Under the pieces are notes generated by a model, which saw only the letters and a list, made by a program, of their open reading frames with translations, made no database searches and had not been told where the DNA came from. Made by a program: the position numbers and the translations under genes. Positions 3,001 through 38,815 of a DNA stretch of 38,815 nucleotides are shown here, in pieces. Position 1 is the stretch's first letter; the number at the start of each line of letters is the position of its first letter. The stretch comes from Hydrurus foetidus (taxonomy: Eukaryota): contig UYFQ01000030.1 of assembly GCA_900617105.1 (NCBI GenBank), positions 1 to 38,815 on the forward strand, read 5' to 3'.

Positions 3001-3438
3001 AAATACAAGATAGTCTTCTCAAAGCTTCTGCTAAAGAACTTCTTCGTACAGATTTACTTCACCAAAACCAATCTCAGATCTCTCAGCATATTGAGTACCC
3101 TCGCGACTCATATGTTCTTGTACATTATCGCGATGGATCACCTCCAACACGTCTTCATACGCATTGGAGAGGTCCCTTAAAAGTCGTCAGTGGCGAAAAT
3201 TCTCGTTACACTCTATACGATTTGATCACACAAAAAACAGCGGTATATCATGTATCTGCCATGAAACCGTTTCTGTATGATCCAGCGATTACAAATCCTG
3301 TTGATGTCGCGCGTCGTGACCATATGGAATACTTCGTAGAAGACATCCTTGATCACCGTGGACCTCATCAACGCTCCAAGATTGAGTTTTTAGTCAAATG
3401 GTTAAATTACCCTTCTGATAAAAAGACTTGGGAGCCTT
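1..3438 (+). pseudogene. pol: A gag C-terminus + pol (protease, RT, RNase H, integrase, start of chromodomain)
   Basis: LLDTGS protease; LDLTQGYHQ, LPFG, YIDD RT; TDASDYG RNase H; HHCC zinc finger; LNIDF/RSDNG/IVERMN DDE. One frameshift near 546, about 28 aa missing from RT near 1148 relative to C, cut at WEP by B. Confidence 0.93.
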
Positions 3439-3766
3439 TGTTACATACGTTGCTTCATATAAATCACACGTACGTACATACACAATACACGTCACTCGTA
3501 GCCACTAGTTTTTCAGATCAGTTTTCGGTTTCTGTCTGTTCGACAACTTCAACTCGAGACATACTCCATCGTAGCTAAACTCACGCTCTTTTCATTCCTA
3601 AAGTAACCAAAGTCACTAAAACCCAAGAACCAGTTCGACTCCTTTCAGTCAACCGACCATCTCGTCTGTTCCAGTTGTTCAGCGAGAGATCTCAGCTTAG
3701 CCCAATTGCGAAGCTGATCAACACGTTTCATCTTCAGTCAAGTCTCTGAAGCCGTGATACAGCATA
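3439..3766 (+). repeat. B 5' LTR (TG..TA)
   Basis: Identical by eye to 10849-11176. Confidence 0.96.
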
Positions 3767-3958
3767 AATATATATTTCTCGTTTACACGAAAAACGTCTA
3801 AATCTTAGATCCCTCAGTTGATTCAATCCTTGTACGCCAGCATCGCAGTGATCGCCCTGGCTCAGCGAGATTTTGAATCTCTGAGGTAATTTCAATACGA
3901 AACGAATTGTCCCGAAAAATCATTCAAGAAAAACAATTCTACAGTTTCTACATCTAAA

Positions 3959-5644
3959 ATGTCTGAAGGAAAAGGAAGCTTCAATCCTAAGAAGGAGGAG
4001 CCAAAGAAAGATGAATCCAAGAAGAAAATCGAGGTCGTTAAAGAAGATCCCGCTACAGATTCCAATTTCGAGCTCAAGCAGATGTTCGCTCAGTTTCTCA
4101 TCTTAAGCAAAGACAATCAATCGCGCAATACTATCGACATTCAAGAGCTGAGAGATGCAATCTTGGAATTGAAGAAAGGAAATTACCTATCTCCAATACT
4201 AGAAGAACTTACCGACACTCATACGCTCAATAGACCTCGTGGAGGCAGAAGATCTTCTATGTTTTTCGGAATGTCTCAACCACCATCTAGCCCCCTAGGA
4301 CCAACAACAGACACTAAGCCAAACATACAAGTGCTCCAAGCCGACATCGTCTACGATAAGGAACTCAAAGTTAGTTCACTAGAAGGCCTTCAATATCTGG
4401 CCCGGCAACTTCAGCTTCTATCTTCCAAATATCCTGGTCGCGAGATCAAGATGGCCCACATGGTCTCCTACAACCTGCGCCCACATGTTCTAGCATCGTG
4501 GAACTCATATAGATATCGAGAGTCTGTTATCAATGGCGCTGAGTCAAGTGAAATTATGGTTGAAGATTGGTTATCTCTAACTAACCCTGAAGTTCAAGAG
4601 ATCCTGGTGGAAGCTGCCCGACCCCGCACAAAAGAATTGTACTCCAAGGAAATCGTCATATTCCTTGGTAAAGGAATCCCTCAGACACCTCCAATAAACA
4701 CCGACAATTTCTCGAGCTCGTTCTATGCCCCACTGATGAAGTCACTCAACGACTTGCTCCATCTTTATGACCTGATGTCACCGGAAACTTCAAACCACAG
4801 TGCCAATAAATCCAAAATACCAGTACCTGGCTACGGTACCAGGGACAGTCCTGGCCAAATCGCCTTATGGCTTATATCCCTAGGCGCTCAAAAAGAAGCT
4901 GTACTTCAATGGCTAGGCAAGGATGAACTTATCAAGCACAAAACTATTGAAACAGCAGTCAAATTCATTCGATCTCGACTAATGGAAGGTCGGGCCCAAA
5001 GCGAAGCTCGTCAAGACTTCGACGCAAAACTCACCCCTATCCGTTATGAAGACCTTCGACACACCCAAGGCGAATCCCACACCCGCCTGCAGACATCCGC
5101 GGCAGGTCGTCCACCTTTCGTGACTCCTCGCAGACATGAGCACCGTCCACATCTGTCATCTCTCGTAACGTCCGCTCAACCACCGTCATACGCAATCGAC
5201 AACGAACACAATGATGATGACACTCCAGATGACGAAATCGATACTGATGCCTCAAGCATTCATGATGATATACATCATGACGACGATACCCTACTCGCTA
5301 TCAACTCAGACATTAATCGTTCCCGATCAGCTGTCAGCGACACCTATCGTGGATATTGCAGCGAACTATTCGTCTACGGCAAATGCTCACGCCAACATTC
5401 TGGTTGCACATTTGATCACTCAGCTGCCGGTCAAGAGCGCTGCATCCAATCATTCTCCCTCCTGACCAAACGAGAGTTACAGCAGCATGCGCAGCTAGAG
5501 CCCTGGTCAAAACAGAAACAAGAATCTACAAACGCAAATAAATCCGCAAACACATACGGTTCCAAGCATGTTGGCTCTCCACATAGCTCTGGATCTGTCC
5601 GGCCCTATGTACCGTCAACTTTGACTCGGCCATATCAGAAATGA
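3959..5644 (+). CDS. gag: B Gag (561 aa) with C-x8-C-x6-C-x3-H zinc finger
   Basis: First long ORF after the 5' LTR and upstream of the protease; CSELFVYGKCSRQHSGCTFDH. Confidence 0.85.
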   Translation: MSEGKGSFNPKKEEPKKDESKKKIEVVKEDPATDSNFELKQMFAQFLILSKDNQSRNTIDIQELRDAILELKKGNYLSPILEELTDTHTLNRPRGGRRSSMFFGMSQPPSSPLGPTTDTKPNIQVLQADIVYDKELKVSSLEGLQYLARQLQLLSSKYPGREIKMAHMVSYNLRPHVLASWNSYRYRESVINGAESSEIMVEDWLSLTNPEVQEILVEAARPRTKELYSKEIVIFLGKGIPQTPPINTDNFSSSFYAPLMKSLNDLLHLYDLMSPETSNHSANKSKIPVPGYGTRDSPGQIALWLISLGAQKEAVLQWLGKDELIKHKTIETAVKFIRSRLMEGRAQSEARQDFDAKLTPIRYEDLRHTQGESHTRLQTSAAGRPPFVTPRRHEHRPHLSSLVTSAQPPSYAIDNEHNDDDTPDDEIDTDASSIHDDIHHDDDTLLAINSDINRSRSAVSDTYRGYCSELFVYGKCSRQHSGCTFDHSAAGQERCIQSFSLLTKRELQQHAQLEPWSKQKQESTNANKSANTYGSKHVGSPHSSGSVRPYVPSTLTRPYQK

Positions 5645-8600
5645 GATTTTGCGAGGCCTTCGTTAGCTCACATGCACATCGAAGATCACCTCGCCGACCC
5701 TCATGACTACCCACTACAAAGTGTCTTCGACCCTGACAACATCTTAACAGAAGCCTTGCTCAGTCAGTTGGCAACCGCTACATCCACCTCGTCGCAACTG
5801 CTGTGCCAACCCTTCATTCGTTCCGGTACCGTTGTTACTAATACCAACCCAATTCTCTTCAGTCGTGGTCTACTTGATACGGGCGCTCAAGGCAGTAACT
5901 TCATCTCCCGTCAATTGTATGAAAGATTACCATCGTCTATAACTGACCTCAGCCGCTCAATTGACCGTGTTGTCCGTCTCGGCGATGCTCGCTCTTTATC
6001 AATTCAGTTGGAAGTTCCTCTCACACTTGGAATTCTCGATTCCACTAAGAATCTCCATCAACACACACTCTGGTATAGTGTCCTCGACGTTCTCAGCCAT
6101 GACATCATCATTGGCTTGGTCGATCTAATTGGACCTTTTACGAGCTTTTTGCTGATGCTGTCACAACGTCTCGTCACTTATCTATCACGTCTGGACTTGG
6201 GACGCACTTAGTAGACCTCACTGCTGCCGTTCAAACACTTCACAGTGACCGAAATCCTCACGATATAGTTCGAGCAACCCATTCGCTACAACGGCAAACT
6301 GCTACCTATCTCGACCGAAAATCTCGAATGTGCAATAGTACAAACACTCACATTCAGCTTCTTGCTCTCCAAGACGGCTCCATTACTGATGTTCTCAATC
6401 ATCCTCGCCTTGGCTACGTCTATGCTGATGATCGTGTTGAAACTAGGTATGATGCTTTGACCGCACTGCTCTGTTCACCCAGTCCTGGTGACATCATTCA
6501 ACCTTGGTCAAAGCCTATTGATTCCTTGGCTCCTGAGGAACTTGAGACTCCTGACCCAACGAGCTTCCCCGATGATATCCTCAATTATCTCACGACATCA
6601 CTAGATGAAGCTCGCGCCATCTACATTGCCGACCTTGAGACACATGTTACTCCCGCTATGCGCACCGCTTGCCCAGCCATCATAGAACTATTACAATCCG
6701 ACCTAGCATACGACGTATTTGTCCCAAGAACATGGAAAGGTATTGACATGCCTCCGGTACACCTTAGTGTCAAACCCGGCATGCCTGATTATCTCAAGGC
6801 TAGACCTCGCCCAATTCGAGAGGCTTTATTCCAAGATGCTAAAACAGAATTTGACCGCATGCAATCATACTTCTATGTAAAATCTACATCTCCAATTGCT
6901 TGCCCGCTCGTCATCGCACCCAAAGCTACTGCTCCCTACATACGATTCTGTGGAGACTATCGTGAAATTAATCCCTTCATCGAAATACCTCAAGAACCCA
7001 TTCCACATGTCCAACAGTCCTTAGCAAAGGCTGCCGGTTGGAAAATATTTGTTGACTTAGACATGACCAACTCATTCCATCAAATTCCCATCGACGAATT
7101 CAGTTCCAATCTCCTCTCTGTGTCTAACCCCTGGGGACTCTTCCGACCTAAGTTTCTCCCAGAAGGTGTTGGACCTGCGTCTGGAATTCTTCAGTCCATC
7201 GTCCGTCGCATTTTTGCTGATTTCGAAGCCTGGATTATAGTAATCTTTGACAATTTTCTTGTGCTGGCCTCTGATTACCAAGATGCTATTACAAAGCTCA
7301 AACTAGTACTTCATCGCTGCCAGATCAATGGCCTTATCCTTAAAATGAAGAAGTCATGGATCGGCACCGACGTCGTTACCTTCTTTGGTTATGAAGTTCA
7401 TCCCGGATCATGGCAACTCTCCGACACTCGCAAAGCGGCTATATCCTCCATGATCTTTCCTACCACGCAAAAACAAATGCAGAGTTTCTTAGGAGCTGCA
7501 AATTTTTTCCATACACATATCCCCAACTTTGCTTCCTGGGCGTCGGCGCTATACGAATGCACTGTCTCTGGCTTCAACTGGGATCCCTCAACATGGAAGA
7601 CAGACTACAAGAAACTCTTTGACCTCTTCAAGACAGCAATCACACAGTCTGTCACCTTGCACTTTCCCGACTACACTCTGCCTTGGGTCGTCCGCTCTGA
7701 CTCCTCCGACCATGCAGTAGGCGCAGTTCTTTTTCAGGAATTCACCGACTCCAACGGAGCTATCATACATCAGCCGATAGCATTTGCATCCCACAAATAC
7801 TCAGGCGCTGCCATCAATTGGGACACCTTCAAACAAGAAGCTTACGCATTGTACTTTTCAATCATTCAGTTTGGCTACTACCTACGCGGTAAACCATTCC
7901 TCCTTGAAACAGATCACCGTAACCTCGTCTGGATTGAAAGCAGTCAGGTCCCCATTGTCGTTCGCTGGCGTGTCCTCCTCCAGAGCTATATTTTCGAAGT
8001 TCGACACATTCCAGGAAAAGACAATACCGTAGCTGACTGGCTCTCACGCATGTACCCCATACATACTGCATCACCCTCTCTCTCTGCGATCTCAACTCCT
8101 ACCACCATCACTGACATGTTTAACGCTGTACATGGTGGTCGCTCCCTCCATCATGGTGCCAAGCGGACGTACTTAGCTCTCTGTCGACGTTTCCCTGGCC
8201 ATGGCATTCCTCTCAGAGTAGTCCAGGATCTTGTCACTGAGTGTCCTCTATGCCAAAAGGATCGACTTCCAATACAAACCATCGAACACAACGAAGTCCG
8301 TGAAACATTATTTCACCACCCACGATCTATCGGTATAGATCATGTCACTATCACTCCACCGGATGAAGACGGATACATTGGTCTACTACTTGTTGTTGAA
8401 CTTGATACGAAGTTTCCTCAAGCCTACCCCATCCGAGATTACACAGCGTATACTGCTGCCACTGTTCTCTTCAAACACTATTGCACATTTGGTACCTACG
8501 ACTCCCTCTACTCAGACCCTGGCAGTGCCTTCACTGCTACTGTCCTCGAACATCTCAACCATTGGATCGGTATCCCTCATCATGTTTCCCTCGTTGGCCG

Positions 8601-9405
8601 ACACGAATCCAACGGCACTGAACACGTTAATGGACTCTTCCTGGGTCACCTTCGCAGACTTGTCCATGATGAACGATTCACCACCAGATGGGCTTCTGAT
8701 ACAGTCCTACCTCTCATCAACCATGCAATGATGACACTGCCCAACACTGAAATTGGCGGTCTCTCGCCTGCTGAACTCAAATTTGGCACTCAAGATTATG
8801 CCCGATTCCAGCTGCCACCTCCACTATCACCGGGTCACACCTACAGTGATCTCGTAATTGCCCTCGACCGTAACCTTGCCATCGTCCGATCAATCACCTC
8901 TGAGTACCAAAACTCACTCCGTCAGCGCCGCCAGTGTGCTATGCCATCCGATTCCCACAATGTCTTCCAACCCGGTGACCACATCCTCTGGAACCCGTTA
9001 GAAACACCCCAATCGTTCCGCTCCAGCAAACTGTCTCCAAAACTCCTTGGTCCATATGAAGTAATTCAACAAATCAAGAACGATATTAGTTGCCGACATG
9101 TTGTGACAAACATCGTTTCCAAACTTCATGCAAGTCGAGTTACTCCTTACTTCGGCTCCCCTGCAACTGCGTACACTACAGCTCTCCTTGACCGTGATGA
9201 ATACATCATCGATTTGATTGTCACTCACCGAGGCAATCCAAAGAAAGTGTCCACACTCGAATTCCTTGTTCGCTGGCAAAATTACTCCGCAATCCATGAC
9301 ACCTGGGAACCATGGATGGAAATGAAAAACACATCAGCAGTTCACCTATACCTAAAAACAAATAACATGAAACACATAATACCAAAACAATTCACAAAAG
9401 ACTAA
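5645..9405 (+). CDS. pol: B Pol: protease, RT, RNase H, integrase, chromodomain; in frame with gag after TGA; one 1-nt frameshift at a T run near 6136-6139
   Basis: LLDTGAQGSNFIS; CGDYREIN, DLDMTNSFHQI, VIFDNFLV; RSDSSD, ETDHRN, VADWLSR; H..H..CPLC, IGIDH/YSDPG/NGTEH; EFLVRWQNYSAIHDTWEP. Confidence 0.93.
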
Positions 9406-9577
9406 CCTGCAACTTTCCGACTTTACACACTGCTTAACTCATGTTTAACCCCTGATTTATGTTGTGACTTGTTTAGTCCGGTATCACGCGGGGCCTCAGG
9501 TATATACCACACCCTTCATTTTACCATTCTGACAAATCACAAGGGTGTTACCCCGACAATCAATAATTTTTTTGATC

Positions 9578-10432
9578 TTATAATTCATACAATTCAAACT
9601 CATAACATAAACACAAATCCTCCATGCGATCAACCATGTTATGAGCAGTATATTTCTTCATGCCATATGTACACCCATTGTCCACAATCATCGTCGCATC
9701 CGGATTCTCTTCCACTCTAATGCCTATCGCGTGATCAATTGTTTTCAGTCCAAGTGCATATTTTCCCCATTCCTCCACGACTTGTGCTTCCGTCAATGTG
9801 TTCAAATGCTGCATCCATTTCTTGTGCTTATCAGTTGCCCATCTCGTCTTCCCCAAAATCACAAACTTCTTTCCTGCCTTATTCAAAACAGTTTTCTTCA
9901 AACTATTAACATCCCAGCCCAACCCAGACTTCATATTCATCCCCGTCCTCTTCCACGTGAACTTGACATCCTTTCCTCTTGCCTGATTATTCTCAACAAT
10001 TCTCCACAAAACCTTCAGTACCTCATGACTATTCACCCCTTTCAACAGAGTTCTCCCCTGTCCTCCTATAACTGATATGATTAAGTCCCTTGGATCTATA
10101 CTCCCACCACATGTTAAAAGATCTTTTCCTACAGCATCTAATACGTTAAACACCGCGAACATCATGCACTGATTCTCTGTCTTTGGCCACAGCACAATAT
10201 TCTCTTTCTCAATAACACCCCTAATTGCTTGTGCTCTTGCATTCGCTTCTGCCTTCGCTTTTGCCTTCACTTCTGCTTTCGCTTTCGCTATTGCTATTGC
10301 GACCCTCTTCTCCTCCGCTTTCGCTATCGCTTCTGGTGTTGCATCTGCTATCGCTTTCGCCAATGCTTTCGCCACTAACTTCAATGCTGCTTTCGCTGCT
10401 TTTGCCTCTGGAGTTGCAACAGCCCTTCCCAT
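9578..10432 (-). CDS. Antisense accessory ORF inside B (284 aa from ATG; 292 aa from upstream TTG); Ala/Lys-rich N-terminus plus putative papain-fold cysteine peptidase domain
   Basis: Uninterrupted ORF between pol stop and PPT; motifs NQCMMFAVFN ... DHAIGI ... IVDNG. Function is inferred from motif pattern only. Confidence 0.7.
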   Translation of the reverse strand: MGRAVATPEAKAAKAALKLVAKALAKAIADATPEAIAKAEEKRVAIAIAKAKAEVKAKAKAEANARAQAIRGVIEKENIVLWPKTENQCMMFAVFNVLDAVGKDLLTCGGSIDPRDLIISVIGGQGRTLLKGVNSHEVLKVLWRIVENNQARGKDVKFTWKRTGMNMKSGLGWDVNSLKKTVLNKAGKKFVILGKTRWATDKHKKWMQHLNTLTEAQVVEEWGKYALGLKTIDHAIGIRVEENPDATMIVDNGCTYGMKKYTAHNMVDRMEDLCLCYEFELYEL

Positions 10433-10848
10433 TGTCGCTCCGTAATCTGCTATCAATATCTCACTATATCAAATGCCAATGTCAACTCTATACTCAATCT
10501 GTTCTATATTCACTCTTGTATGTATGAAATTGTGAATCTCTGATTGATTTGATCAATGTATATATCGCTCAAACTGTCAGTTCGTTTTTTGTTTTTGTAT
10601 ATTTTCGATCAGTACACGTCACAAAAAAAAAAAACGTCATTGTCGGTTTCAACTGACGCTGCCTTCCAGTAGGCTCAAAACACTTAAGGTCGCGTGTTCG
10701 ATTCCTTAGAAAAGGCCTAATAATTTTCTAATCACCTAATTCAGCTTTTATAGCGATACCTTGTACTTGACGAACTCACTGAGATGTAGCTAATGCATTG
10801 TATTTATTTATTGTCAACTATAATATATTTAAACCGAAAGGGGGGTGG

Positions 10849-11176
10849 TGTTACATACGTTGCTTCATATAAATCACACGTACGTACATACACAATACAC
10901 GTCACTCGTAGCCACTAGTTTTTCAGATCAGTTTTCGGTTTCTGTCTGTTCGACAACTTCAACTCGAGACATACTCCATCGTAGCTAAACTCACGCTCTT
11001 TTCATTCCTAAAGTAACCAAAGTCACTAAAACCCAAGAACCAGTTCGACTCCTTTCAGTCAACCGACCATCTCGTCTGTTCCAGTTGTTCAGCGAGAGAT
11101 CTCAGCTTAGCCCAATTGCGAAGCTGATCAACACGTTTCATCTTCAGTCAAGTCTCTGAAGCCGTGATACAGCATA
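10849..11176 (+). repeat. B 3' LTR
   Basis: Follows GAAAGGGGGGTGG PPT; identical to 5' LTR. Confidence 0.96.
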
Positions 11177-11180
11177 CCTT

Positions 11181-11751: not shown

Positions 11752-14056
11752 AGCGAAGCTCGCTGTCTCATGCATCATACTCCTCCAACCTGCATGCAGT
11801 GGGATTCCATTCAGAGGCAGATACACGCGCGCCACCATACAAGGCGATTGCAAAGCGTCAGCCAGATGTACCACGCTACCCTGGCCTAGACCGCAACACC
11901 AAAATGTGCCACACCTGTGGACGCAGCGGCCACAACCGTTACAACTGCCTCTTCCACATGAACGAGCACTGCAACATCACACACTTCATGTGGTCCGAAT
12001 CCCCCATGGGGATCGAATGAAAACGGCTCGGTCACAAATATTTTACAATTGATGCACATCTTCTATCGGGCGGAGTATCTCGAGAGAGACAAAAAATCCA
12101 CGTCCCGGCAAACTTCAAGTTCCCCACGGATGAAGACGACATTGACATGGGTAACACCCAAACGAAGTCAAACCCTCGGCAAGGCACCAGTGCGCCACCA
12201 TACGGCAAAGTTACGAAGCCAGCGTACGACGACCGACGAAGAAGTGAGTTTTTAACACCACCTGTCAGTGTCCAAATTTTACCGCGTATCGACTTACCTC
12301 GAACACGTACCTTACTTTCAGCAATACTTCCTGAAAAAGTAAATGATTACTTACAAGTCAACATTTCTCTCCCACAGATCAGTATGGCCCACGACAAGAC
12401 GACCGCTCTCGCAAAGACGACCGCACACACGCCGACATCGACAACCGCGACCGTGACCGCCAACGCAACGAGCGAGAAGCCTTCGCGCGCGACAAGGCAA
12501 AAGACAAGGAAGGGTCCTCCAGCAGCTCCAACAAGCCCTACTCCTCAAAGTAGAGGCGTGGATGCACTGGCCCAAATCGATACGGGGTGCGAAGTCGGTG
12601 ACGTCATTAACCGTAGAGTCCTCGAGGGCCTGCGGGGTGAGTACCGCTTACGCGACTCCGATTCACCAATGTGGATTTGTTCAGGTTTAGATAATAAGTG
12701 TATTGAATCCAAATCTGTGCTTGATATTGTTTTATCATTTAAAAAAGATTCTTTGAAATACATCTTTTCTCCTCCGGTCCGCATCGCAGAAGACTCTGAA
12801 ACAGATTTGATTATAGGTACAAATACCATAAAAGTCTAAATTTAGTTAGAATTATGCCCGAATTTTTCGGTCATAAAAATCATACTGATCCGTGGACCCG
12901 TATAGATAATTCAATGGTATTAACCACGAAGAATCTGCCGGACACAATTCTCTCCACCGAGGTCCAAGAACCTCCAGTCAATAAAGACTTGGACGGGGCT
13001 AAACCCTCCAACACAGACAGCCTGAGGCAGGGTGACTTGGTGTCTGGAGGTGCTTGTAAACACAAGAATTGCACATCGACGTATGGGTGTTCGCAGATTC
13101 GAGTAGCGGCCGCTACCGACCCTGTTCAAGACGAGTCCATCTTGCAAGTATGCGGGAGGTCAAGAACCCACTTGGCTTCTCCTCGACAAGATGGTTTAGA
13201 GCTCACGCTCGACAGAGAGAAGGAAGTAGCTATCCAAATCTACCCCTCCATAACTCCGCCCCAAACATATGGCTTTTTCGCGGCTCTACTTAGAGAGAAG
13301 GAATATCTCCCTGAAGCTCAGCCTTTCGGTCCGGAAGAAATTGACTACAAGTCAAAGGATACATTTGCTCCTTTCATGCCTTCCAAGCAAACATCCACGG
13401 ATATTATAGACCTCATTCACATTGAAGGTACTCATGATGAAATTGCACGGATTCGAACAGCACGTGTTAAACACATAGTCCTGTTCAAAAATGAACTTGG
13501 ACCAGAACCAGCAAGAATACCACCATTTGAACTTCCCGTTATGGAGAAACAATGGAAGGTACCCAAAAACAGACAGGCGTCACGCATCAATCCACGAGCT
13601 AAACCGGATGGTACCTTCCTATTTTGCATTGATTACCGTGGACTAAACGAAGCTACAGAATCTGCAAGTTGGCCAATACCAAATATAAGACTCATGTTAG
13701 GACGTTTAGGAGCTGCAAAAGCAGATACCTTTGGTGTAATTAACCTCACGGCAGGATACCACCAGGCGCCAATCACAATGAGCACACAAATTTATACAGC
13801 CTTCATTGCATTCATGGGCATATATCACTTTACAAGACTTCCTTTTGGGCCTAAACGTGCACTATCATATTTTCAAGGAATGATGGCTTCAGTAGTCCCG
13901 ACATCATAGTGTACGCAACTGGACACTTACAATTCTGTGAACGATTGGAAACAATATTTTAATGTTTAGAAGCAAAGAATATTTCACTTAAAACAGCTAA
14001 ATTAAAACTTGGTATGAAAAAAGTGGAACATGTAGGTAAAGAAATATCAAACGAAG
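11752..14056 (+). pseudogene. pol: D gag C-terminus, protease and RT N-terminal half
   Basis: CCHC knuckle; AQIDTG, WICSGLDNKC; CIDYRGLN, LTAGYHQ, RLPFGPK; several stops and deletions. Confidence 0.88.
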
Positions 14057-14318
14057 TGTAGCCTTATTGCATTCCTAAGGGGATACAATGTGTCTAGGTT
14101 AACTAGGTACAATAGGTATATTACGCCCAGATTCCACTTTTAGGTCTTAGTTCCACATATGACGTGAATGCACTTTAGCGTACACATCACTTGTAGATAC
14201 TCAACTGTAAAATACTAACACAAGTTTACTCCACATATCCTTGCTTCCCTTGCCCACCGCTTGCATCAACCGACCACCACTTTTAGCTCCAACGTCCTAG
14301 GCCCCGCCCAAGACCACA
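14057..14318 (+). repeat. C 5' LTR
   Basis: Matches 18988-19249 and is related to 36868-37129. Confidence 0.96.
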
Positions 14319-14773
14319 ATATCGATATTTGGTCGATACCAAAGCTTTTTTTGCGAGAAATTCATTTCTCCACGCCATCACTTTCAAATCCCATCACTCA
14401 TATCCGACAGTCGAAGACAATGGCTCTCCGACGCCAGGACAAGAGGATTAGCACCATCAACTCCCTTCGCCGACAACGACAGCCCCCTAGAGCTGTCGCC
14501 GTCGCCTTCCGACAACGTTACGAGGAGCACCACAATCGTGGAGGAGATAGCATCGAGTCTCCTGGGCCACCTGCGGCTCAGGACCCCGCCGGCGACCTGT
14601 CTGCACCGATTCCTCAGCGGAATTCGGAGCCTGCGGTCTCGTCTGTTATTGATGCTCCTGTTTTATCTGCTTTATCCGCTCTAACGTTATCACCAGTTTC
14701 GGCTGAGATACCAGCTTCGGCTGCGACACCAGATTCGTCTGCGACACCAGCTTCGGCTGAGATTCCTCGTTCG

Positions 14774-15673
14774 ATGGCACCACCTCAGCACTATGTGCAA
14801 ACGGGTGAGAGAGCTCCTAAGTTGAGCGCCGTGCCCTCTCGTCAGGAAGTACTACGGGTAATGGAGGTCCTCCTTTCAAATGGAACTCCATTTAAACCAG
14901 TTGATGTAATCCATGTTTCCAACCATCAATCGTTTACAACGCTTCTCAAGCGTAAGTTTGCAACTGATCCCGATCGTCGCGACTCCTGTAACAATTGGAA
15001 ACATTGGTCGAATCAATTGTTCTGTAGAGAACTCAATCTCACAGTTCCTACATCAGCTGTCAATCGAACTGACAAGCTGAGTTTCATTGAAACTGTCTCT
15101 CAGGTCGCACTTCAATTCGACCTGAAGGATAAATCAGTGGAAGACAAGACAGATCAGCTTTTAGCTGATATTGTTGATGGATTCCCTGATGCAACACCCG
15201 CTCTCCAACTTCAGGCAACCAAAATTCTCATCGATAAGTTGCCTGTCGAACCTATCAATTGGAGAGCAGTGTTACAGCGTAGTCTTAACAATACAACGCC
15301 AAGACTCATTACAATCGAAGACTTTCGATTCGTATGGCTTGCGCAGCTTGCTAAGCTACGAGAATCAATTGATGCCTTACGGTTCATTGATGTCTCTCCT
15401 TTGTATGGTGATCACTCTCGCCAAATCAAAGCTCCTCCTCGTTCCTCTCAGGACAAAATCAAAAAACGTCCACGAGAGAGCGAACAATCTGTGCAATCAG
15501 ACAAGTCTGACAAATTCGAAAGACCTCTGTGCACAGGCTGTGGGAGACTCGGCCATTTCGTCGCCACGTGTTTTTACACTACGTCTCCGTACTATAACAG
15601 TACAGACGCACCCTATATCAACTCTGAGGGTCATAAGCAGTTGTTGAAAGTCGATTCAAAGGCTATTCAATGA
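14774..15673 (+). pseudogene. gag: C Gag (true start uncertain, may be upstream), C-terminally truncated by deletion
   Basis: CTGCGRLGHFVATC zinc knuckle; near-identical to F gag until about 15665. Confidence 0.85.
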
Positions 15674-18600
15674 ATTTGTTTTCACGTTTCCCCGATCAAA
15701 TATCTGCCAATGCTTCATCAAACACTACCTCATTAGCGGAAGTTTTATCTTCTGAACAAGTGGATATAACGTGTGGCTGTCAGCCTAAGGAGAAGTTGCA
15801 ACCCTCTGATGGCTCCCCAAAGGTCGATCCTTTAACTCAAAAGGTGAAACCGGCAGTAACCCAAACACACGTTATTCTAGCTTCACTAATACAAGAGTCT
15901 GAAAGACTTTTTGAGGCTGTGCCCCCTGATGAGGACGAAATCGACGACTCGATCAAGGACTCGTTTTCACCTTGGATAGATGAATTTCCTGATACTGATC
16001 CACTCTCGCTAATAAACTTAGCAGGTGATGAAGATCAGAAAAATAAACTTCGGTTACTAGTACACGAATTCAAGGATATATTTAGCAGTGAACTTTCGGC
16101 CACTCCTGCTAATATTCCACCGTTTGACTTTCATGTCAATGACGACCAATGGAGAGTCTCTAAAAATAGACAACCTCCATGGGCTAAATCAACAGTTGAT
16201 CAAGCTGACATTCTCAGTCAAATTAAAAACTTGAAAAACAAAATATTGTTGAAAAATCAAACGCGGCTTATTATAGCCAAGTTTTACTAGTTCCAAAATC
16301 TGATGGAACTAAGCGCATGTGTATTGATTTTCGGAATCTCAACAATTGTACCGAAGATAAATCACATCCTATTCCACACATCGGTGAGATGTTGCGTCGA
16401 ATAGGTGCACATAAAGCAAAAGTGTTTGCTGTACTTGATCTCACTCAAGGTTACCATCAAGCACCACTTACACTCGCTGCACGTGCTTATACTGCATTCA
16501 TACTATTCTGCGGAGTATATCAATTCACTCGTTTACCCTTTGGGCCAAAACAAGCACCCTCCTATTTCCAACAGATTATGACGACTGTTGTGTTAGCAGG
16601 TCTGATATACTCTATATGCGAAATGTACATAGATGATTGCAATGTTTTCGGTAAAGACATTGACGAACTTATTTCTAGACTTCGTCTTGTGTTTGATCGT
16701 TTTAGAAAACACAAAATATTCCTTAAACCGAATAAGTGTTATCTAGGCTATGCCGAAATAGATTATGTTGGCAAAGTTCTATCTGCAGATGGACTTAGAA
16801 TGTCACAAGAAAAAATACGGACTGTCTTAGATTTTCCTAAACCAGTACTATCTAAACAACTCAAAAGTTTTTTAGGATTGGTTAATTATTTTCACGACTT
16901 TGTTAGAAACGCTTCTACTGTTGTATACCCGTTACATCAGTTGCTTCTTAACTATAATAAGTATAAGAAAATAACTTGGACAATAGAAGCTCTCAGAGCA
17001 TTCAATTTGATCAAATCTGAGATTTCAAAATGCACGACTATGCACTTTTTAAGTGACACCGATCCGATATACTTGCACACTGATGCATCGGACTACGGTG
17101 TAGGTGCCTATCTTTTCCAGTTAGTTGACGGTCAAGAGACGCCCATAGCATTTGTCAGTAAATCACTTAACAAAGCTCAGCTTCGTTGGGCTGTTATACA
17201 AAAAGAAGCATATGCTATCTTTTATTCGTGCACGTATTTAAAATCGCTATTACGTGATCGTACGTTCACATTGCGTACAGATCATCGTAACTTGTTATAC
17301 ATCAAGGATAATTCAAATCCAATGATTGTTCGGTGGTTTATGGCCTTATCCGAATATTCATTTAAAATTGAATATATACCTGGTGCTAACAATGATATAG
17401 CTGATTCGATGTCTCGACTCTGTCGCAATAACATGGTTGATTTCCCTCAGGAATATACTCCTGATGCAATCATGTCTGCTAATACTATTGAAAAATTCAA
17501 ACTAACACGTGATCAGTACAATACAATCAGTAAAGTACACAATTCACAAGTTGGGCATTTTGGCCTTGAGCGCACTTTAAAGCGTCTCATTGACAAAAAG
17601 ATAGTATGGCAATATATGCGTCAGCATGTCAGGTGGTTCATAGATCACTGTTCGTGTTGTCAGAAAATGAGTATGTTAAAGATACCAATACATGCTCATG
17701 GTTTCTCGACTTCTACTTACACACCTATGGAATGCCTTAACATAGACTTCATAGGACCGTTTCCAGACGGCGGGTACGTACTCGTAATTATCGATACGTT
17801 CACAAGATGGGTTGAACTGTTTCATACAGAAGATGCTACAGCACTTTCAACAGCTAAATGCCTCTTGCAACACTTCGGTCGTTTCGGCGCACCTCTCCAA
17901 CTCCGTTCTGATAATGGGCCACACTTCATTTCCGAAGTTATTAGAGAGTTTCTAACTCTTATTGGCACTCAACATTGTCTTACTTTAGCATACTCTAAAG
18001 AAGAAAATGCTATTGTTGAGCGCATGAATAAAGAAGTAAATAGACATCTTCGTGCATTAACATTCGATAATGTCACACTAGAAGATTATAAAACGTCACT
18101 TCCATTTGTGCAACGAATTTTAAATTCTAATCACAGTGATCGTTTAAAAATATCATCTTCTCAACTTCTTTTCGGAAATGTACTCAAACTCGATAGAGGT
18201 ATCTTTTACCTCCTGCTGAGCGAAATGTTACTGATGACAAACCTTTGTCAAAGCGTATGAGCAATCTACTCAAAACGCAAGACAGTCTTCTTAAAGCTTC
18301 TGCTAAAGAACTTCTTCGCACAGATTTGCTTCATCAAAGTCAGTCTCAAGTTTTTCAGCATGTAGATTATCCAAAAGACTCTTATGTCTTAGTGCACTAT
18401 CGCGATGGATCTCCTCCTTCACGTCTTCACACGCATTGGAGAGGTCCATTAAAAGTCGTTAGTGGCGAAAATTCGCGTTACACACTTTATGATTTAGTCA
18501 CTCAGAAAACTTCAGAGTTTCATGTTTCTGCAATGAAACCTTTTCTATTTGACCCTTCAATCACAAATCCGTTGGATGTTGCACGACGTGATCACATGGA

Positions 18601-18796
18601 ATACTTTGTTGAAGACATTCTTGATCATCGTGGCAAACACCAACGTACCCACATAGAGTTTTTAGTCAAATGGTTAAATTACCCTTCAGACAAAAACACT
18701 TGGGAACCTTATTCAAGTCTTCGTGATGTTGATAAACTTCATGATTATTTACGTCATAATAACATGACTAAATTAATCAATAAGCAACATCGATGA
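15670..18796 (+). pseudogene. pol: C Pol without protease (RT, RNase H, integrase, chromodomain); 1-nt frameshifts in homopolymers near 16225 and 18205
   Basis: YIDD, TDASDYG, DDE motifs, EFLVKWLNYPSDKNTWEP; colinear with A pol. Confidence 0.93.
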
Positions 18797-18987
18797 CTTA
18801 ATATATTTGAAACTTTATCCATGAGGATTCTCTCCTATTTTTTTTACCTACGGGTCTTTTTTGGAGAGTTTAGTCAGTAAAAGTCTGACATAATCGTTTC
18901 ATCTATATCTCATATATATGTTTTACATATCTTTTCACTTTTTTTGTATATCATATCAAAGATCTTCAAAAAAGGAAGAAGGGGTAG

Positions 18988-19249
18988 TGTAGCCTTATTG
19001 CATTCCTAAGGGGATACAATGTGTCTAGGTTAACTAGGTACAATAGGTATATTACGCCCAGATTCCACTTTTAGGTCTTAGTTCCACATATGACGTGAAT
19101 GCACTTTAGCGTACACATCACTTGTAGATACTCAACTGTAAAATACTAACACAAGTTTACTCCACATATCCTTGCTTCCCTTGCCCACCGCTTGCATCAA
19201 CCGACCACCACTTTTAGCTCCAACGTCCTAGGCCCCGTCCAAGACCACA
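18988..19249 (+). repeat. C 3' LTR
   Basis: One C/T difference from the 5' LTR. Confidence 0.96.
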
Positions 19250-19253
19250 GAAG

Positions 19254-21490
19254 GTACAACTAAAAGGCGTGACCGACTTTCCGATGCCAAGAAAGACGAT
19301 GGAACTGAGGTCGTTTCTCGGACTCACGAATTATTTTAGGGATCATGTACGGAACCACTCAAACGTAGTCGCTCCTTTACAATAGATGACCACGCACGCA
19401 TCCAAAAAGCAAACATTGCTTATATGGACTGACGCAGCAGCTGACGCATTCTATATGATTAAACAGCGAATTCCGGAGAGGCTTTGCTATATTTCATACA
19501 CAATACAGCCCCAATAACCTTAATGATTGATGCGTCAGATTACGGTATTGGAAGATACTTGTGTGGCATCCTGCCTTGAATGAACATCCTGTTCTACCAT
19601 TCCGCTACAAAAGCGGGGGCCCTCCCTTGGTAGAACAGGATGTTCGTACAAGGCAGGATGCCAAATTGGTCTAACTTCTTTCTTTTTCAAGTAGAGTGGC
19701 CATGGGCTCATTCACCTTGAGTTCGTACGTGGTTGGTGGTTTGGAACTCGTGACCCGTAGTTCCAATTGGCATTGTCGAGTAAGAGTTCTTTCTGCTCTA
19801 CCACTCCACCATTCTAGCGCTAGGATGGTGGAACAGTAGAGCATAAAGAATGTTCGTTCAACGCAGGATGCCACACTTGTGCCAAAAAGTCGACGGAAAG
19901 AAACAATCGTCGCTTTCGTGAGTAAGTCTCCTACCAAGACACAACTGAAGTGGTCAACAATACAGAAAGAAGCCTTCGCGCTCTATTATTGTTGTACTTA
20001 CCTCGACGCACTACTACGAGATCATAAATTTACAATTCTCACGGACCATAAGAATCTTACCTTTATAGAAAAAGACAAGAACGAAATGGTTGGCAGATGG
20101 GGAGTCGCCCTGCAGGAATTGGATTATACGATAGGCTACGTACCAGGTAAAGAAAACGACATTGCAGACGCGATGTCATGCCTATGTTTAAACAGAATGG
20201 AAAAGAAATCCAGACTTGTATTATCATTACATGTTAAACAATTAACGACAAACGAGCAATATGAACTCATTGATAGTTGTCATAACGCTAGGATCGGACA
20301 TGGTGGTGCACAAGGTGCGTTACGGAACTTAAAAGCAAGGAAAAAAGTGTAGCCAGGCATGAAAAAGGCAGTATAAACTTTCATCAAAAATTGCCCTTGT
20401 TGCCAAAAGATATCAGCGGAAAAAATACCATTAAATTCTTACACTTAGACTACTTCAACATACAAACCAATGGAATGTCTCAACATAGATTTCATTGGAC
20501 CCTTCCCAAACAAAGGATATATTCTAGTCATGATTGATATATTTACACGTTTCGTAGAACTATACGCAACAAAAGATGCAACCGCTAAGGCGGTATGCAC
20601 AGCATTAGTTGAACACGTCGGTAAATATGAATCTTCTAGATATATTAGATCTAACAACTGCCCGCACTTTGCCAACCACGTAATTGATGAATTTACCAAA
20701 CTCGCAGGCACACAATTCAATTGTGGAAAGAATGAAAAAGGAAGTTAAACGGCATATTCGAGCGTATACGTATGACAGATCTACAACTGTAAACTACCAA
20801 GAAATTCTACCCTTTGTTCAACGTATATGAAATTCAACAATTAATGATAAAACGAAAATTTCACCAGCACAAATCCTTTATGGTAATGCTATTAATATGA
20901 ATGAAGGAATTTTAATCCCAAGAGGAGAAGTTAACCTCATCCCAGAAAACAGTACAACTTCATCTACAAATACGATAAAGATCCAAAGTGATCTTATAAG
21001 AATTGCGGCGAGACTCTTTAAAGAATCTGATCACGAACATAATGAAAAACAAAACCTAGGTATAACACATTTCGAGGCAGGCTCATATGTACTCGTTACT
21101 CAACGCACGCAGCCAGAGACACGCATGCACACATTGTGGCGCGGTCCACTTCGCGTTCTAAGCAATAGGCAAGGAGAATATACGATACTCAATCTTATTA
21201 CTCTTAAGAATGTTAAGTACCACATACCACAATTAAAGACTTTCTTATTTAATTCAATGCACACTGATCCAACAGATGTAGCACGTCGTGACTATTTAGA
21301 ATTCTTCATCTAAGAAATAGTAGACATGAGAGGTAATATTTCATCTTAAGGAGCATTAGAATTTGAAGTCAAATATCCCTCAGAAAGTAATACCTGGGAA
21401 CCATGGCGAAGTCTACGAAAAACGGACAAGCTACACAATTTTCCTATAAGTAAGAATCTACGTCACCTAATTCCAAGAGAATTCAGATTA
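19254..21490 (+). pseudogene. pol: D RT end, RNase H, integrase and chromodomain, degenerate
   Basis: LRSFLGLTNYFR, DASDYGIG, QKEAFA, TDHKNL, MECLNIDFIGP, WRGP, NTWEPW; many stops. Confidence 0.88.
19562..19875. mobile_element. Mini fold-back tRNA-derived non-autonomous element, copy 1 (314 bp)
   Basis: TGTGGCATCCTG..CAGGATGCCACA inverted ends; TSD CTTG (19558-19561 / 19876-19879); removal restores D's GRYLCQKVDG; homologous to 30928-31366. Confidence 0.88.
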
Positions 21491-26419: not shown

Positions 26420-26969
26420 GTCTAATCACTTATCGATATAAATTTCACTTAAACTCACTGAAGATCGATAACCTCTGCTCAGAATTTTTTTCCAGAGCTT
26501 CGCCTCGTTCACGAACGGGTACTTTAACGTTAGTAACAACGAACAAGAGGATTTTAACCAACTCTTGAACTGAAAAGTTCTATGGCGTAAAAGCCAAATT
26601 TAGAGTGGTAGAAAAAGTTGGGTAACTTTAAGGTAGAAGGCGTTGCTCAACGTCGACGAAAAGAAGTCTATCGACTAACTTAGTGTCTCTGGTGATGAAT
26701 CTACGATTCAATCGACCGGCGGAGCAAGCCTTAACTGACTTCTGGGAAGGATAAATCAACTTCTACCAAGAATGTCAAGTTTGGAAGAGCCCAAGCACGG
26801 GGATTCCAAGAAAGCAGGTAATCTGACTTTCTCTAACTTAGACTAGAGTTCTCTGCAGAAGAAAGCAACTCGGAAGTCGTGGAGCCGGTGCTCAGAAGTC
26901 TTATCTACAGGTTGGGACGAGTAGATGGAAGGAGAGGTAGCAGAGAAAAGATTGGACTAATAGCGCTAT

Positions 26970-27176
26970 TGTAGTCCGGATAGGAAAGTAGGTCGATAGA
27001 ATGGAGGTGTTAGTTAGTTACAGGACTAAGCTAGAAGCTAGGATAACTTCTACGAGTAGGCTAGAGCTGGCTAGCAGCTGTGCTAGAGATGTATATGTAC
27101 AGTAGGCGGTAGGATCGGAAGGATCGGGACTAGGTCCGGTACGGCCCGTAGACCCGGTATAGCCGATCCGACCACA
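26970..27176 (-). repeat. E 5' LTR (207 bp)
   Basis: TG..CA on minus strand; TATACCGGGT shared with D LTR; followed by a palindrome as in B/C/F. No partner LTR in window. Confidence 0.75.
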
Positions 27177-27840
27177 GCACTTATTCCGCTTTCACTCAAT
27201 CGAATCATACCACAAGATGTGATAATAGTACAGTATGATAATGCACTCATGTAGGTATAATTAGATGTCAAGAATAGAGATATTAACATGGCTATCGGGA
27301 AGTAGAACAAAATGAGTGATAGCTGAGAGCATGCAAGATTGCAGTTTGCTGCTTTGTTGCTTACAAAGTCAATTGAGCAACCGATGCTTCAAAGAATTAT
27401 TCTGCAGTGGGAGCACCAATTTTGGAGATTTTACAATTACGATTAACTCTTTTCTAATTTGCGTTTTGATGCATCTTAACAGTAAGTTCTAAAGATACTT
27501 ATGCGAAAGTCCACCGCGCTATGTACACCAAAAATCGTACGTAGATCAGTAGAAAAAAGTCATCTTCGTAGTAGTATCGGCAGATAAGTAAAAAATTTCA
27601 GCATCGTTAAAGGCATTGGAAGGTCAGTACAAAACATTAATCTCGATGGTGGTGTAAATTTTGTTGAAGATTGTCAGACGGATCGGTAGATCAGTAAAAA
27701 AAGGATCAAATTGCTGAGTTAAAATTTACTATCCCAACCGAGCTCTACGTTAGTTACCCCAAAATAAAATATTGGCCGTACGGCCCTTTGGGTTCCAATT
27801 GAATTGCTGGCAACGCGCAACCAAGGGGGTATAGAGAGAG

Positions 27841-34894: not shown

Positions 34895-34960
34895 TATCCT
34901 CACCTGCCGGAATCTTGTATTCTTTATTCCCCTCTAGGGATACTGCGCCAGTTACCTGAG

Positions 34961-36867: not shown

Positions 36868-38815
36868 TGTAGCCTTATTGCATTCCTAAGGGGATACAAT
36901 GTGTCTAGGTTAACTAGGTACAATAGGTATATTACGCTCAGATTCCACTTTTAGGTCTTAGTTCCACATATGACGTGAATGCACTTTAGCGTACACATCA
37001 CTTGTATTTACTCAACTGTAAGATACTAACACAAGTTTATTCCACCGATCCTTGCTTTCCTTGCCCACTGCTTGCAACAACCTTCAACCAACATCAGCTC
37101 CAACGTCCTAGGCCCCGCCCGAGACCACAATATCGATATTCGGTCGATACCGAAGCTTTATTCTTCGTGAGAAGTTCGTTTCTCCGCTCCATCAATTGTA
37201 AATCCATCACCTAATTCCGACAGTCGAAGACAATGGCTCTCCGACGCCAGGACAAGAAGGATTAGCACCATCAACTCCCTTCGCCGACAACGACAGCCTC
37301 CTAGAGCTGTCGCCGTCGCCTTCCGACAACGTTACGAGGAGCACCACAATCGTGGAGAGATATCGAGTCTCCTGGGCCACCTGCGGCTCAGGACCCCGCC
37401 GGCGACCTGTCTGCACCGATTCCTTAGCGGAATTCGGAGCCTGCGGTCTCATCTGTCATTGATGTTCCTGTTTTATCTGCTTTATCCGCTCTAACGTTAT
37501 CACCAGTTTCGACTGCGACACCAGCTTCGGCTGAGATACCAGCTTCGGCTGCGACACCAGATTCGTCTGCGACACCAGCTTCGGCTGAGATTCCTCGTTC
37601 GATGGCACCACCTCAGCACTATGTGCAAACGGGTGAGAGAGCTCCTAAGTTGAGCGCCGTGCCCTCTCGTCAGGAAGTACTACGGGTAATGGAGGTCCTC
37701 CTTTCAAATGGAACTCCATTTAAACCAGTTGATGTAATCCATGTTTCCAACCATCAATCGTTTACAACGCTTCTCAAGCGTAAGTTTGCAACTGATCCCG
37801 ATCGTCGCGACTCCTGTAACAATTGGAAACATTGGTCGAATCAATTGTTCTGTAGAGAACTCAATCTCACAGTTCCTACATCAGCTGTCAATCGAACTGA
37901 CAAGCTGAGTTTCATTGAAACTGTCTCTCAGGTCGCACTTCAATTCGACCTGAAGGATAAATCAGTGGAAGACAAGACAGATCAGCTTTTAGCTGATATT
38001 GTTGATGGATTCCCTGATGCAACACCCGCTCTCCAACTTCAGGCAACCAAAATTCTCATCGATAAGTTGCCTGTCGAACCTATCAATTGGAGAGCAGTGT
38101 TACAGCGTAGTCTTAACAATACAACGCCAAGACTCATTACAATCGAAGACTTTCGATTCGTATGGCTTGCGCAGCTTGCTAAGCTACGAGAATCAATTGA
38201 TGCCTTACGGTTCATTGATGTCTCTCCTTTGTATGGTGATCACTCTCGCCAAATCAAAGCTCCTCCTCGTTCCTCTCATGACAAAATCAAAAAACGTCCA
38301 CGAGAGAGCGAACAATCAGTGCAATCAGACAAGTCTGACAAATTCGAAAGACCTCTGTGCACAGGTTGTGGGAGACTCGGCCATTTTGTCGCCACGTGTT
38401 TCTACACTACGTCTCCGTACTATAACAGTACAGACTCACCCTATATCAACTCTGAGGGTCATAAGCAGTTGTTGAAAGTCGATTCAAAGGCTAAGTTTAT
38501 TCCAACTTTACCTAAGACATCGACCTCTTCTTCATCGTCTTCCTCTTCTTCTTCCGCTTCGGCAAAACCTATCGTCTTCCTCTTCTTCTTCCGCTTCGGC
38601 AAAACCTGCTACTTCAACAGCAGACTCGACGCACGCTGCGAAGAAAACAAAGGTGAGCAACTATGCAACCTAAATTCATCATCTATTCTTTCCGATGATC
38701 CAGAACTTATTCCTTTCTTCGTATCTCCCCTCTCACAGGAGGTTATGTTGGGAAAAAGTAATAGAGTCTTTACTCTCCTGGACACCGGCTCTTTTGCTGG
38801 CAACTTTATACATCA
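36868..38815 (+). mobile_element. Element F: 5' part of a C-family Gypsy element (LTR 36868-37129, gag, start of protease)
   Basis: 262-bp LTR homologous to C; gag near-identical to C; LLDTGSFAGNFI at window end. Confidence 0.94.
37602..38815 (+). CDS. gag: F Gag-Pol, open to the window edge (start uncertain)
   Basis: MAPPQHYVQTGERAPK.. CCHC knuckle .. protease DTG; contains 37-bp tandem duplication 38534-38607. Confidence 0.82.
   Translation, partial: MAPPQHYVQTGERAPKLSAVPSRQEVLRVMEVLLSNGTPFKPVDVIHVSNHQSFTTLLKRKFATDPDRRDSCNNWKHWSNQLFCRELNLTVPTSAVNRTDKLSFIETVSQVALQFDLKDKSVEDKTDQLLADIVDGFPDATPALQLQATKILIDKLPVEPINWRAVLQRSLNNTTPRLITIEDFRFVWLAQLAKLRESIDALRFIDVSPLYGDHSRQIKAPPRSSHDKIKKRPRESEQSVQSDKSDKFERPLCTGCGRLGHFVATCFYTTSPYYNSTDSPYINSEGHKQLLKVDSKAKFIPTLPKTSTSSSSSSSSSSASAKPIVFLFFFRFGKTCYFNSRLDARCEENKGEQLCNLNSSSILSDDPELIPFFVSPLSQEVMLGKSNRVFTLLDTGSFAGNFIH

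What the first reader, a model, noticed from the sequence alone, without database searches (positions are those of the whole stretch)
3766..3777. A 12-nt palindrome replaces the tRNA primer-binding site in every element with a visible 5' LTR
Seen: starting at the last A of the 5' LTR, B has AAATATATATTT (3766-3777), C and F have AATATCGATATT (14318-14329; 37129-37140), and E has AATAGCGCTATT (26970-26959, minus). Position and length are the same, the sequence differs between three families with otherwise different LTRs, and all are perfectly self-complementary, which amounts to compensatory change. None starts with the TGG needed to pair with tRNA CCA. I could not see a Tf1-style complement near the presumed transcript 5' end. 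Inference: a tRNA-independent priming mode, e.g. two co-packaged genomes pair through the palindrome and a cleaved strand primes minus-strand synthesis, or hairpin self-priming. Best candidate for an undescribed mechanism in this window.
Basis: partly seen in the sequence, partly recalled or inferred. Interest (0 to 1): 0.88.

Follow-up and report, generated by a model that had tools for sequence, protein, structure and literature searches.

The report
Palindrome replaces retrotransposon primer site
A broad group of gypsy-type jumping genes from freshwater DNA carries a short self-complementary sequence exactly where such elements normally bind a host tRNA to start copying themselves, and keeps it symmetric while its letters change, which likely means that two copies of the element's RNA pair there and would prime each other.

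Summary
Confirmed and extended. All four 12-mers are perfect palindromes that start at the last A of a 5' LTR; the LTR ends are fixed independently by LTR pairs (B, C, F) and contig depth (E). The elements are chromodomain Ty3/gypsy retrotransposons. In related loci, 23 of 25 junctions that I called carry a perfect 10-14-nt palindrome in the same register (14 distinct 12-mers in all), none of 29 has a TGG primer site, and none of 23 LTRs has a Tf1-type complement of 10 nt. Sister families change the central bases in matched pairs, including adjacent bases 6/7 that cannot pair in a hairpin, so pairing is likely between two molecules. Four outgroup elements keep TGG sites. The feature is not without precedent: fungal GalEa copia elements have a 10-nt palindrome in the same register (Donnart 2017), mechanism unsolved. 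I found no report for gypsy elements in ten searches. This scan has noted the same thing before on other genomes (at least eight notes, unchecked). Priming by the partner genome is inferred, not shown; a pure dimer signal plus an unknown primer is the main rival. Host tRNA fragments could not be tested.

The parts
3766..3777 (+). 12-nt palindrome of element B, first base = last A of the 5' LTR
3439..3766 (+). 5' LTR of B (328 nt, ends TG..TA); 4-bp target-site duplication at 3435-3438 and 11177-11180
3959..5644 (+). gag-like ORF of B (no Pfam hit; atlas leads under 0.9 include Retrotrans_gag and zinc-knuckle clusters)
5645..9405 (+). pol of B: RT, RNase H, integrase motifs, chromodomain; this copy is split over two frames relative to P0001
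10849..11176 (+). 3' LTR of B, identical to the 5' LTR, preceded by a purine tract and not followed by the palindrome
14057..14318 (+). 5' LTR of C (262 nt, TG..CA); 4-bp target-site duplication at 14053-14056 and 19250-19253
14318..14329 (+). 12-nt palindrome of element C
14328..14343 (+). 6-bp hairpin overlapping the palindrome's last two bases; one pair differs from F in a compensating way
   Evidence: sequences side by side
15637..18796 (+). pol of C in three frames: RT, RNase H, integrase, chromodomain
18988..19249 (+). 3' LTR of C
26959..26970 (-). 12-nt palindrome of element E
26970..27214 (-). 5' LTR of E (245 nt, TG..CA), bounded by contig depth; E's degenerate gag matches C-clade proteins
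36868..37129 (+). 5' LTR of F (same family as C)
37129..37140 (+). 12-nt palindrome of element F, same as C

Best explanation
A clade of chromodomain Ty3/gypsy retrotransposons has a 10-14-nt (mostly 12-nt) palindrome in place of the tRNA primer-binding site; it likely pairs with the same palindrome of a second, co-packaged genome, and that partner strand would, once cut, prime minus-strand synthesis without tRNA. Shown: position, clade-wide conservation of symmetry, compensating changes, absence of TGG and of a Tf1-type complement. Inferred: that the pairing is RNA-RNA between two molecules (from complementarity of the central adjacent bases and from folding energies). Inferred further, untested: a cut in one strand between palindrome bases 11 and 12, probably by the element's RNase H as recalled for Tf1, leaves a 3' end paired opposite base 2 of the other strand, so the first base copied is the LTR's last A; this would explain why the palindrome always begins exactly there. 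Plus-strand synthesis would then copy the primer, so each daughter gets one strand of the site from the partner; this would mirror a mutation to the opposite arm and account for strict Watson-Crick symmetry with fast turnover of letters.
For: Four window junctions with LTR ends fixed independently. 23 of 25 junctions called in related loci carry a perfect palindrome from the LTR's last A (17 of 12 nt, 3 of 14, 3 of 10). 23 of 26 LTR-to-gag windows hold a 12-nt or longer palindrome opening with (C/T)A, against a mean of 1.18 and a maximum of 5 in 200 shuffles. Middle-blind test: 16 of 90 (C/T)AAT-N6-ATT motifs in 46 clade loci have a self-complementary middle, against 0 of 54 in 34 outgroup loci and 2 of 82 when a purine precedes. 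Pair 6/7 occurs as TA 9, CG 5, AT 4, GC 1 and no G-U in 19 junctions. Sister families differ only by matched changes: L002/L005 (87% RT-RNase H identity, two pairs), L003/L013 (82%, one), L024/L027 (77%, one); L009/L010 (86%) differ by two matched pairs plus one unmatched end base. 22 of 23 12-mers give no hairpin; self-dimers are -5.2 to -15.4 kcal/mol. Symmetry stops at the palindrome's edge (first flank pair complementary in 6 of 19). B- and C-type elements (30% identity) group in one clade, support 0.992, apart from a clade in which L046, L049, L078 and L080 have TGG sites.
Against: No experiment; no primer or cut site was observed. Many dimers are weak (about -6 to -7 kcal/mol for A/U-only sites). 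The L004/L009 family has a mismatch at pair 1/12, so its palindrome does not start at the LTR's last A. L017 has an LTR start and no palindrome in the following 528 nt (it may be a 3' LTR). Lengths of 10 and 14 need the cut to be measured from the duplex end, not by a fixed count. A symmetric duplex could be cut on both strands, which would remove the overlap needed for the second strand transfer; the model needs an asymmetry that I cannot point to. L010 and L021 have 9-nt complements in their LTRs. In the loci the LTR ends were called with the palindrome in view, helped by terminal inverted repeats that match only 2-6 of 6. Palindromes near the 5' end are known as plain dimer signals in Ty1 and Ty3 (PMC4974528, PMC11381356; passages).
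Confidence: 0.5

Rival explanations
1. The palindrome is a dimerisation and packaging signal only (like Ty1 PAL, Ty3 PAL6, retroviral DIS), and minus-strand synthesis is started by another, unidentified primer or by a primer-independent route.
For: Intermolecular pairing is what the covariation shows, and 5' palindromes drive dimerisation in Ty1 and Ty3 (PMC4974528, PMC11381356; passages). In several families the palindrome is predicted to lie unpaired or in a loop, as a kissing site would. Other gypsy lineages lack any recognised primer site (Skipper, PMC5006619; SM-Tcn1, PMC2864245; passages).
Against: Known dimer signals come in addition to a PBS and are not tied to the LTR edge (PMC5445492 discussion passage); here the site fills the very place where any primer must end, its start is fixed to the LTR's last base in 27 of 29 junctions, and no G-U pairs are seen, which a dimer signal should tolerate (inference).
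Confidence: 0.25
2. The symmetry acts at the DNA stage: a dyad read by a dimeric protein (integrase or RT), or pairing of cDNA ends during strand transfer or end processing.
For: A dyad in double-stranded DNA would also give perfect symmetry without G-U pairs (inference); it abuts the integrase-recognised LTR end, and LTR ends here vary between CA and TA.
Against: The central six bases take many different sequences while staying symmetric (14 distinct 12-mers), which fits base pairing better than recognition by one protein family; it leaves the missing primer unexplained.
Confidence: 0.1
3. Intramolecular self-priming: the 12-mer folds back as a hairpin, or pairs with the transcript's own 5' end as in Tf1, or with a downstream partner as proposed for the GalEa hairpin site.
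For: Tf1/Sushi and Tcn1 chromoviruses self-prime in cis (PMC6317226, PMC4600332; passages). Small hairpins are predicted just 3' of many palindromes and one has a compensated pair between C and F. Two LTRs have 9-nt complements.
Against: 22 of 23 12-mers fold to nothing; bases 6/7 and 5/8 would lie in the loop yet stay complementary; none of 23 LTRs reaches the 10-nt complement used to call self-priming (criterion from PMC6317226 methods passage); no downstream 9-nt partner with fewer than 2 mismatches in 30 junctions.
Confidence: 0.08
4. The site binds a host tRNA half or other small RNA, and the symmetry is incidental.
For: Primers from tRNA halves do not need TGG (PMC6317226, PMC5445492; passages). 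The outer bases are conserved (AAT...ATT in most).
Against: The middle varies freely among close sisters and always in matched pairs; a fixed host primer would hold the letters, not the symmetry.
Confidence: 0.05

Closest known systems
Conserved Hairpin Site (CHSeq1/CHSeq2) of fungal GalEa Ty1/copia elements, Donnart et al. 2017, PMC5445492 (read: passages, section 10, Additional file 4)
   Same: No PBS; a palindrome that includes the final A of the 5' LTR sits in its place; its two main forms differ by one compensated pair; authors suppose it takes the PBS's role and say no known model fits.
   Different: Other superfamily (copia, fungi). 10 nt with two main forms, against 10-14 nt with at least 14 forms of the 12-mer here. 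GalEa usually has a downstream partner CHSeq2 (absent in 5 of 44 families listed); none is found here. TSD 5 bp there, 4 bp in B and C. The passages read compare it with dimer signals but do not propose priming by a partner genome.
Tf1/Sushi, Tj1 and Tcn1 self-priming chromoviruses (PMC4600332, PMC6317226; passages; mechanistic detail of the 11-nt primer recalled, Levin 1996 seen as a title only)
   Same: Chromodomain gypsy elements with no tRNA site; the element's own RNA is the primer; RNase H cleaves an RNA duplex (title of the cited paper); 11 nt follow the LTR, as recalled for Tf1.
   Different: Tf1 pairs the transcript's 5' end with a non-palindromic PBS in cis; no such complement exists in 23 LTRs here.
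Palindromic dimer signals of Ty1 (PAL), Ty3 (PAL6) and retroviruses (DIS) (PMC4974528, PMC11381356; passages)
   Same: Short 5' palindromes that pair two genomes.
   Different: They accompany a tRNA PBS and are not fixed to the LTR boundary; PAL6 is 6 nt.
Dictyostelid Skipper chromoviruses (PMC5006619; passages)
   Same: Chromodomain gypsy elements with no TGG site and no LTR complement; unknown priming.
   Different: A polypyrimidine stretch, not a palindrome, fills the site.

Membership tests
Ty3/gypsy LTR retrotransposon | Direct LTRs with target-site duplication and a purine tract before the 3' LTR | tested here: met
   B and C: LTR pairs, 4-bp TSD, purine tract
Ty3/gypsy LTR retrotransposon | pol order RT - RNase H - integrase; RT closest to Ty3 | tested here: met
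   Pfam order in A and C; best solved-structure matches include Ty3-G Gag-Pol, E 5e-59
Chromovirus | Chromodomain at the integrase C-terminus | tested here: met
   PF00385 above cut-off in A, B and C
Chromovirus | RT phylogeny inside named chromovirus clades | not testable with these tools
   No named reference elements were available; the tree holds unnamed loci only
tRNA-primed elements | TGG site 0-5 nt after the 5' LTR | tested here: not met
   0 of 29 junctions
tRNA-half-primed elements | Complement to an internal end of a host tRNA | not testable with these tools
   No host genome; the one tRNA call in the window lies inside an integrase reading frame
Tf1/Sushi self-priming group | 10 nt or more in the 5' LTR complementary to the sequence after it | tested here: not met
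   Longest 9 nt in 23 LTRs
GalEa Conserved Hairpin Site | Palindrome including the LTR's final A, in place of the PBS | tested here: met
GalEa Conserved Hairpin Site | Downstream inverse-complementary CHSeq2 with one mismatch | tested here: not met
   Best 9-nt partner has 2-5 mismatches in all 30 junctions scanned
GalEa Conserved Hairpin Site | Ty1/copia (GalEa) element | tested here: not met
   Gypsy domain order with chromodomain
Genome dimer signal | Drives RNA dimer formation | not testable with these tools
   Only predicted self-dimer energies

The most novel reading that the evidence does not exclude
A third way to start LTR reverse transcription, beside tRNA priming and Tf1-type priming in cis: one packaged genome is cut to prime its partner through a shared palindrome, used by a wide gypsy clade and reached independently by fungal GalEa copia elements; dimer formation and priming would be one step.
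Probability: 0.42. Interest if true: 0.88.

Novelty: new variant of a known kind. Interest (0 to 1): 0.68.

Why it matters
How LTR elements without a tRNA site start reverse transcription is open for several lineages (GalEa in fungi, Skipper, SM-Tcn1). This clade adds what the GalEa case lacked: many natural variants whose central, adjacent bases change in matched pairs, which points to pairing between two molecules and gives ready-made matched and mismatched sites for an in vitro test. If the partner genome is the primer, the element is independent of host tRNA and of control through tRNA fragments, and co-packaging becomes family-specific by the palindrome's letters. Annotation tools that demand a tRNA site will under-call these elements.

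Tried and rejected
No host genome is held, so other copies and host tRNAs could not be searched. Single-protein scans of viral contigs found no relatives; alignment scans gave 2 and 7 loci. The genome collection gave 7 short B-type contigs filed in prokaryote assemblies, none with a junction that I could call. Variation of the palindrome among copies in one genome remains unmeasured: the table lists 40 differences, none inside 26959-26970, but 292 more are not shown, so nothing follows. The 42-of-42 count of complementary central pairs against a shuffle mean of 16.6 is largely circular, since the sites were picked as palindromes; I rely on the middle-blind test and on sister pairs instead. A motif scan for TGG sites over the outgroup gave false hits inside reading frames (L079), so only four outgroup loci whose LTR start is fixed by a repeat are counted. 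L079, in the outgroup, has a candidate LTR followed by an 8-nt A/T palindrome; the LTR call is unverified and I leave it open. The atlas look-up of B's gag gave only leads under 0.9. Levin 1996 is not held. PMC7472051 and PMC3601003 (passages) say nothing on palindromic sites.

Full report
1. Observation. The four 12-mers are at the stated places and are perfect palindromes. The window is a nest of LTR elements. B (3439-11176) has identical 328-nt LTRs and sits in the integrase end of element A; C (14057-19249) has LTRs differing at 1 of 262 bases and sits in a remnant element; both have 4-bp target-site duplications, and a 5-bp reading would need a mismatch in both, so the LTRs include the final A. 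F is C's family. E has one LTR in the window; contigs from four runs show a several-hundred-fold depth step at about 27227, about twice the internal depth over the LTR, and a loose end joining other flanks at 26970. Thus all four LTR ends are fixed without reference to the palindrome. The window has 12 perfect palindromes of 12 nt or more, 4 of them at the 4 visible 5' LTR ends.

2. What the elements are. Pol of A, B and C carries RT, RNase H, integrase (Pfam hit in A and C, motifs in B) and a chromodomain in gypsy order; solved-structure matches are headed by a 478-residue RT/RNase H chain and Ty3-G Gag-Pol. B and C are only 30% identical over the trimmed RT-RNase H alignment. E's degenerate gag matches C-type proteins. 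Relatives are many and unnamed: 710 and 609 proteins at E 0.001 or better. Runs that hold 0.92 or more of B's words are freshwater, sediment and air metagenomes and one coded organism; the best holder may be the window's own source. The host is a eukaryote that I did not identify.

3. Related loci. A tree of 101 RT-RNase H segments (76 loci, 22 proteins, A, B, C; 8 loci too short were left out) joins the B and C lineages in one clade with support 0.992, apart from a second clade with 0.996; inner branches are weak and B's branch is long. I assigned 46 loci to the first clade (five of them by identity only). In 25 I could call an LTR-leader junction: 17 have a perfect 12-mer from the LTR's last A, 3 a 14-mer, 3 a 10-mer, and 2 (L004, L009, one family) a 10-nt core with a mismatch at the outer pair. 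L017 has an LTR start and no palindrome after it. The other 20 gave no junction, mostly because the contig starts inside gag or ends inside the LTR. In these loci the LTR end was called with the palindrome in view; support comes from purine tract plus TG starts and terminal inverted repeats of 2-6 of 6 bases.

4. Chance. With one window per family from LTR or contig start towards gag, 23 of 26 contain a palindrome of 12 or more opening with (C/T)A; 200 dinucleotide shuffles give a mean of 1.18 and at most 5. Two of the 23 (L015, L029) score through a palindrome other than my junction, and three windows are contig starts chosen after looking. A test blind to the middle: of 90 (C/T)AAT-N6-ATT motifs on the sense strand of the 46 clade loci, 16 have a self-complementary middle, all at called junctions (L027 twice); 0 of 54 in 34 outgroup loci; 2 of 82 in the clade when a purine precedes. 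The arm motif itself was taken from the sites seen. In the outgroup, the four loci whose LTR start is fixed by a repeat (L046, L049, L078, L080) have TGG sites after the LTR. L079 is an unresolved exception with a possible 8-nt palindrome.

5. What kind of pairing. Among 19 junctions of the 12-nt class there are 14 distinct sequences. Pairs 1-3 are nearly fixed (AAT...ATT); pairs 5/8 and 6/7 each take all four Watson-Crick forms and never G-U. Close sisters differ by matched changes: L002/L005 by two pairs, L003/L013 and L024/L027 by one, L009/L010 by two plus the unmatched end. Bases 6 and 7 are neighbours and cannot pair in one strand, and 22 of 23 12-mers fold to no hairpin, while self-dimers range from -5.2 to -15.4 kcal/mol. 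So the constraint is on pairing between two copies (inference). Symmetry does not extend into the flanks on average (2-6 of 19 per position), though some families (E, L013, L009) have a short U5-leader stem around the site, and many have a small hairpin just downstream; C and F differ there by a compensated pair.

6. Known priming modes. TGG within 0-5 nt of the LTR: 0 of 29 junctions. Tf1-type complement in the LTR: longest 9 nt among 23 LTRs, 5 nt in each window element, below the 10-nt criterion of Neumann et al. (PMC6317226, methods passage). tRNA halves could not be tested without a host genome, but a fixed primer would conserve letters, not symmetry.

7. Mechanism. A primer has to end at or just after the LTR boundary, which is where the palindrome lies (established knowledge). 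The simplest account is that two packaged RNAs pair over the palindrome and one strand, cut between bases 11 and 12, primes on the other so that the LTR's last A is the first base copied. This is Tf1's scheme moved from cis to trans (Tf1 details recalled; RNase H cleavage of an RNA duplex seen in a reference title). It explains the fixed start and, since the plus strand would copy the primer, the quick matched turnover. It does not explain how only one strand is cut, nor the L004/L009 end mismatch. I give it 0.5; a dimer signal with another primer 0.25; a DNA-stage role 0.1; cis priming 0.08; a host small RNA 0.05.

8. Prior knowledge. Donnart et al. 2017 (PMC5445492; passages, section 10 and Additional file 4 read) describe in fungal GalEa copia elements a 9-bp sequence that is palindromic with the LTR's final A and replaces the PBS, usually with a downstream partner, and state that no known model fits. 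That is the same register in another superfamily. No downstream partner is present here. Skipper (PMC5006619) and SM-Tcn1 (PMC2864245) are gypsy elements with unexplained priming but no palindrome in the passages read; Ty1 and Ty3 palindromes are dimer signals beside a PBS (PMC4974528, PMC11381356; passages); PMC6934838 (passages) cites the GalEa site. Ten searches of the open library (mostly seen as listings) showed no report of a palindromic site in gypsy elements; subscription papers and Repbase entries are not covered. The scan's own notes report the same feature in other genomes (microsporidia, other protists); I read them after forming my view, did not check them, and do not count them as support.

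9. Verdict. Real, clade-wide and functionally constrained; a gypsy counterpart of a published but unexplained copia feature, with stronger evidence for pairing between two molecules. New variant of a known kind; the mechanism, if it is priming by the partner genome, would be new. Interest 0.68.

Noticed in passing
window 9578-10468 (-): Element B carries an antisense ORF of about 295 aa in its 3' untranslated region, with an Ala/Lys-rich start; no Pfam hit and no match in the 84 loci.
   Followed up: partly
window 31313-36121 (+), repeats 30927-31367, 30000-30232/36458-36690, 36149-36258/36759-36868: A DIRS-like element (gag-like ORF, RT with YVDD, tyrosine-recombinase-like ORF with HSLR) flanked by complex inverted and split direct repeats; a partial copy of the inverted-repeat block lies at 19561-19850 inside another element. 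No Pfam hit at E 0.001.
   Followed up: partly
window 5642-5644; L071, L072, L074, L076, L077: In the B lineage gag and pol are in the same frame, separated by a single stop codon, a candidate for readthrough.
   Followed up: partly
window 3439-3766; L009, L010, L023, L028: LTRs that end TG..TA rather than TG..CA occur in several separate families of the clade; target-site duplications in B and C are 4 bp.
   Followed up: partly
window 20595-20682 (-): ARAGORN calls a tRNA-Ile inside the integrase reading frame of a remnant element; likely spurious.
   Followed up: no
L079:6488-6700: An outgroup element has a candidate 199-nt LTR followed by an 8-nt A/T palindrome and no TGG; could be an independent case or chance.
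   Followed up: partly
window 24586-27214 (-): Element E belongs to a very high-copy, diverse family in runs X5 and X11 (summed contig depth several hundred times that of the flank), while the window copy is degenerate and ends near 24600.
   Followed up: partly
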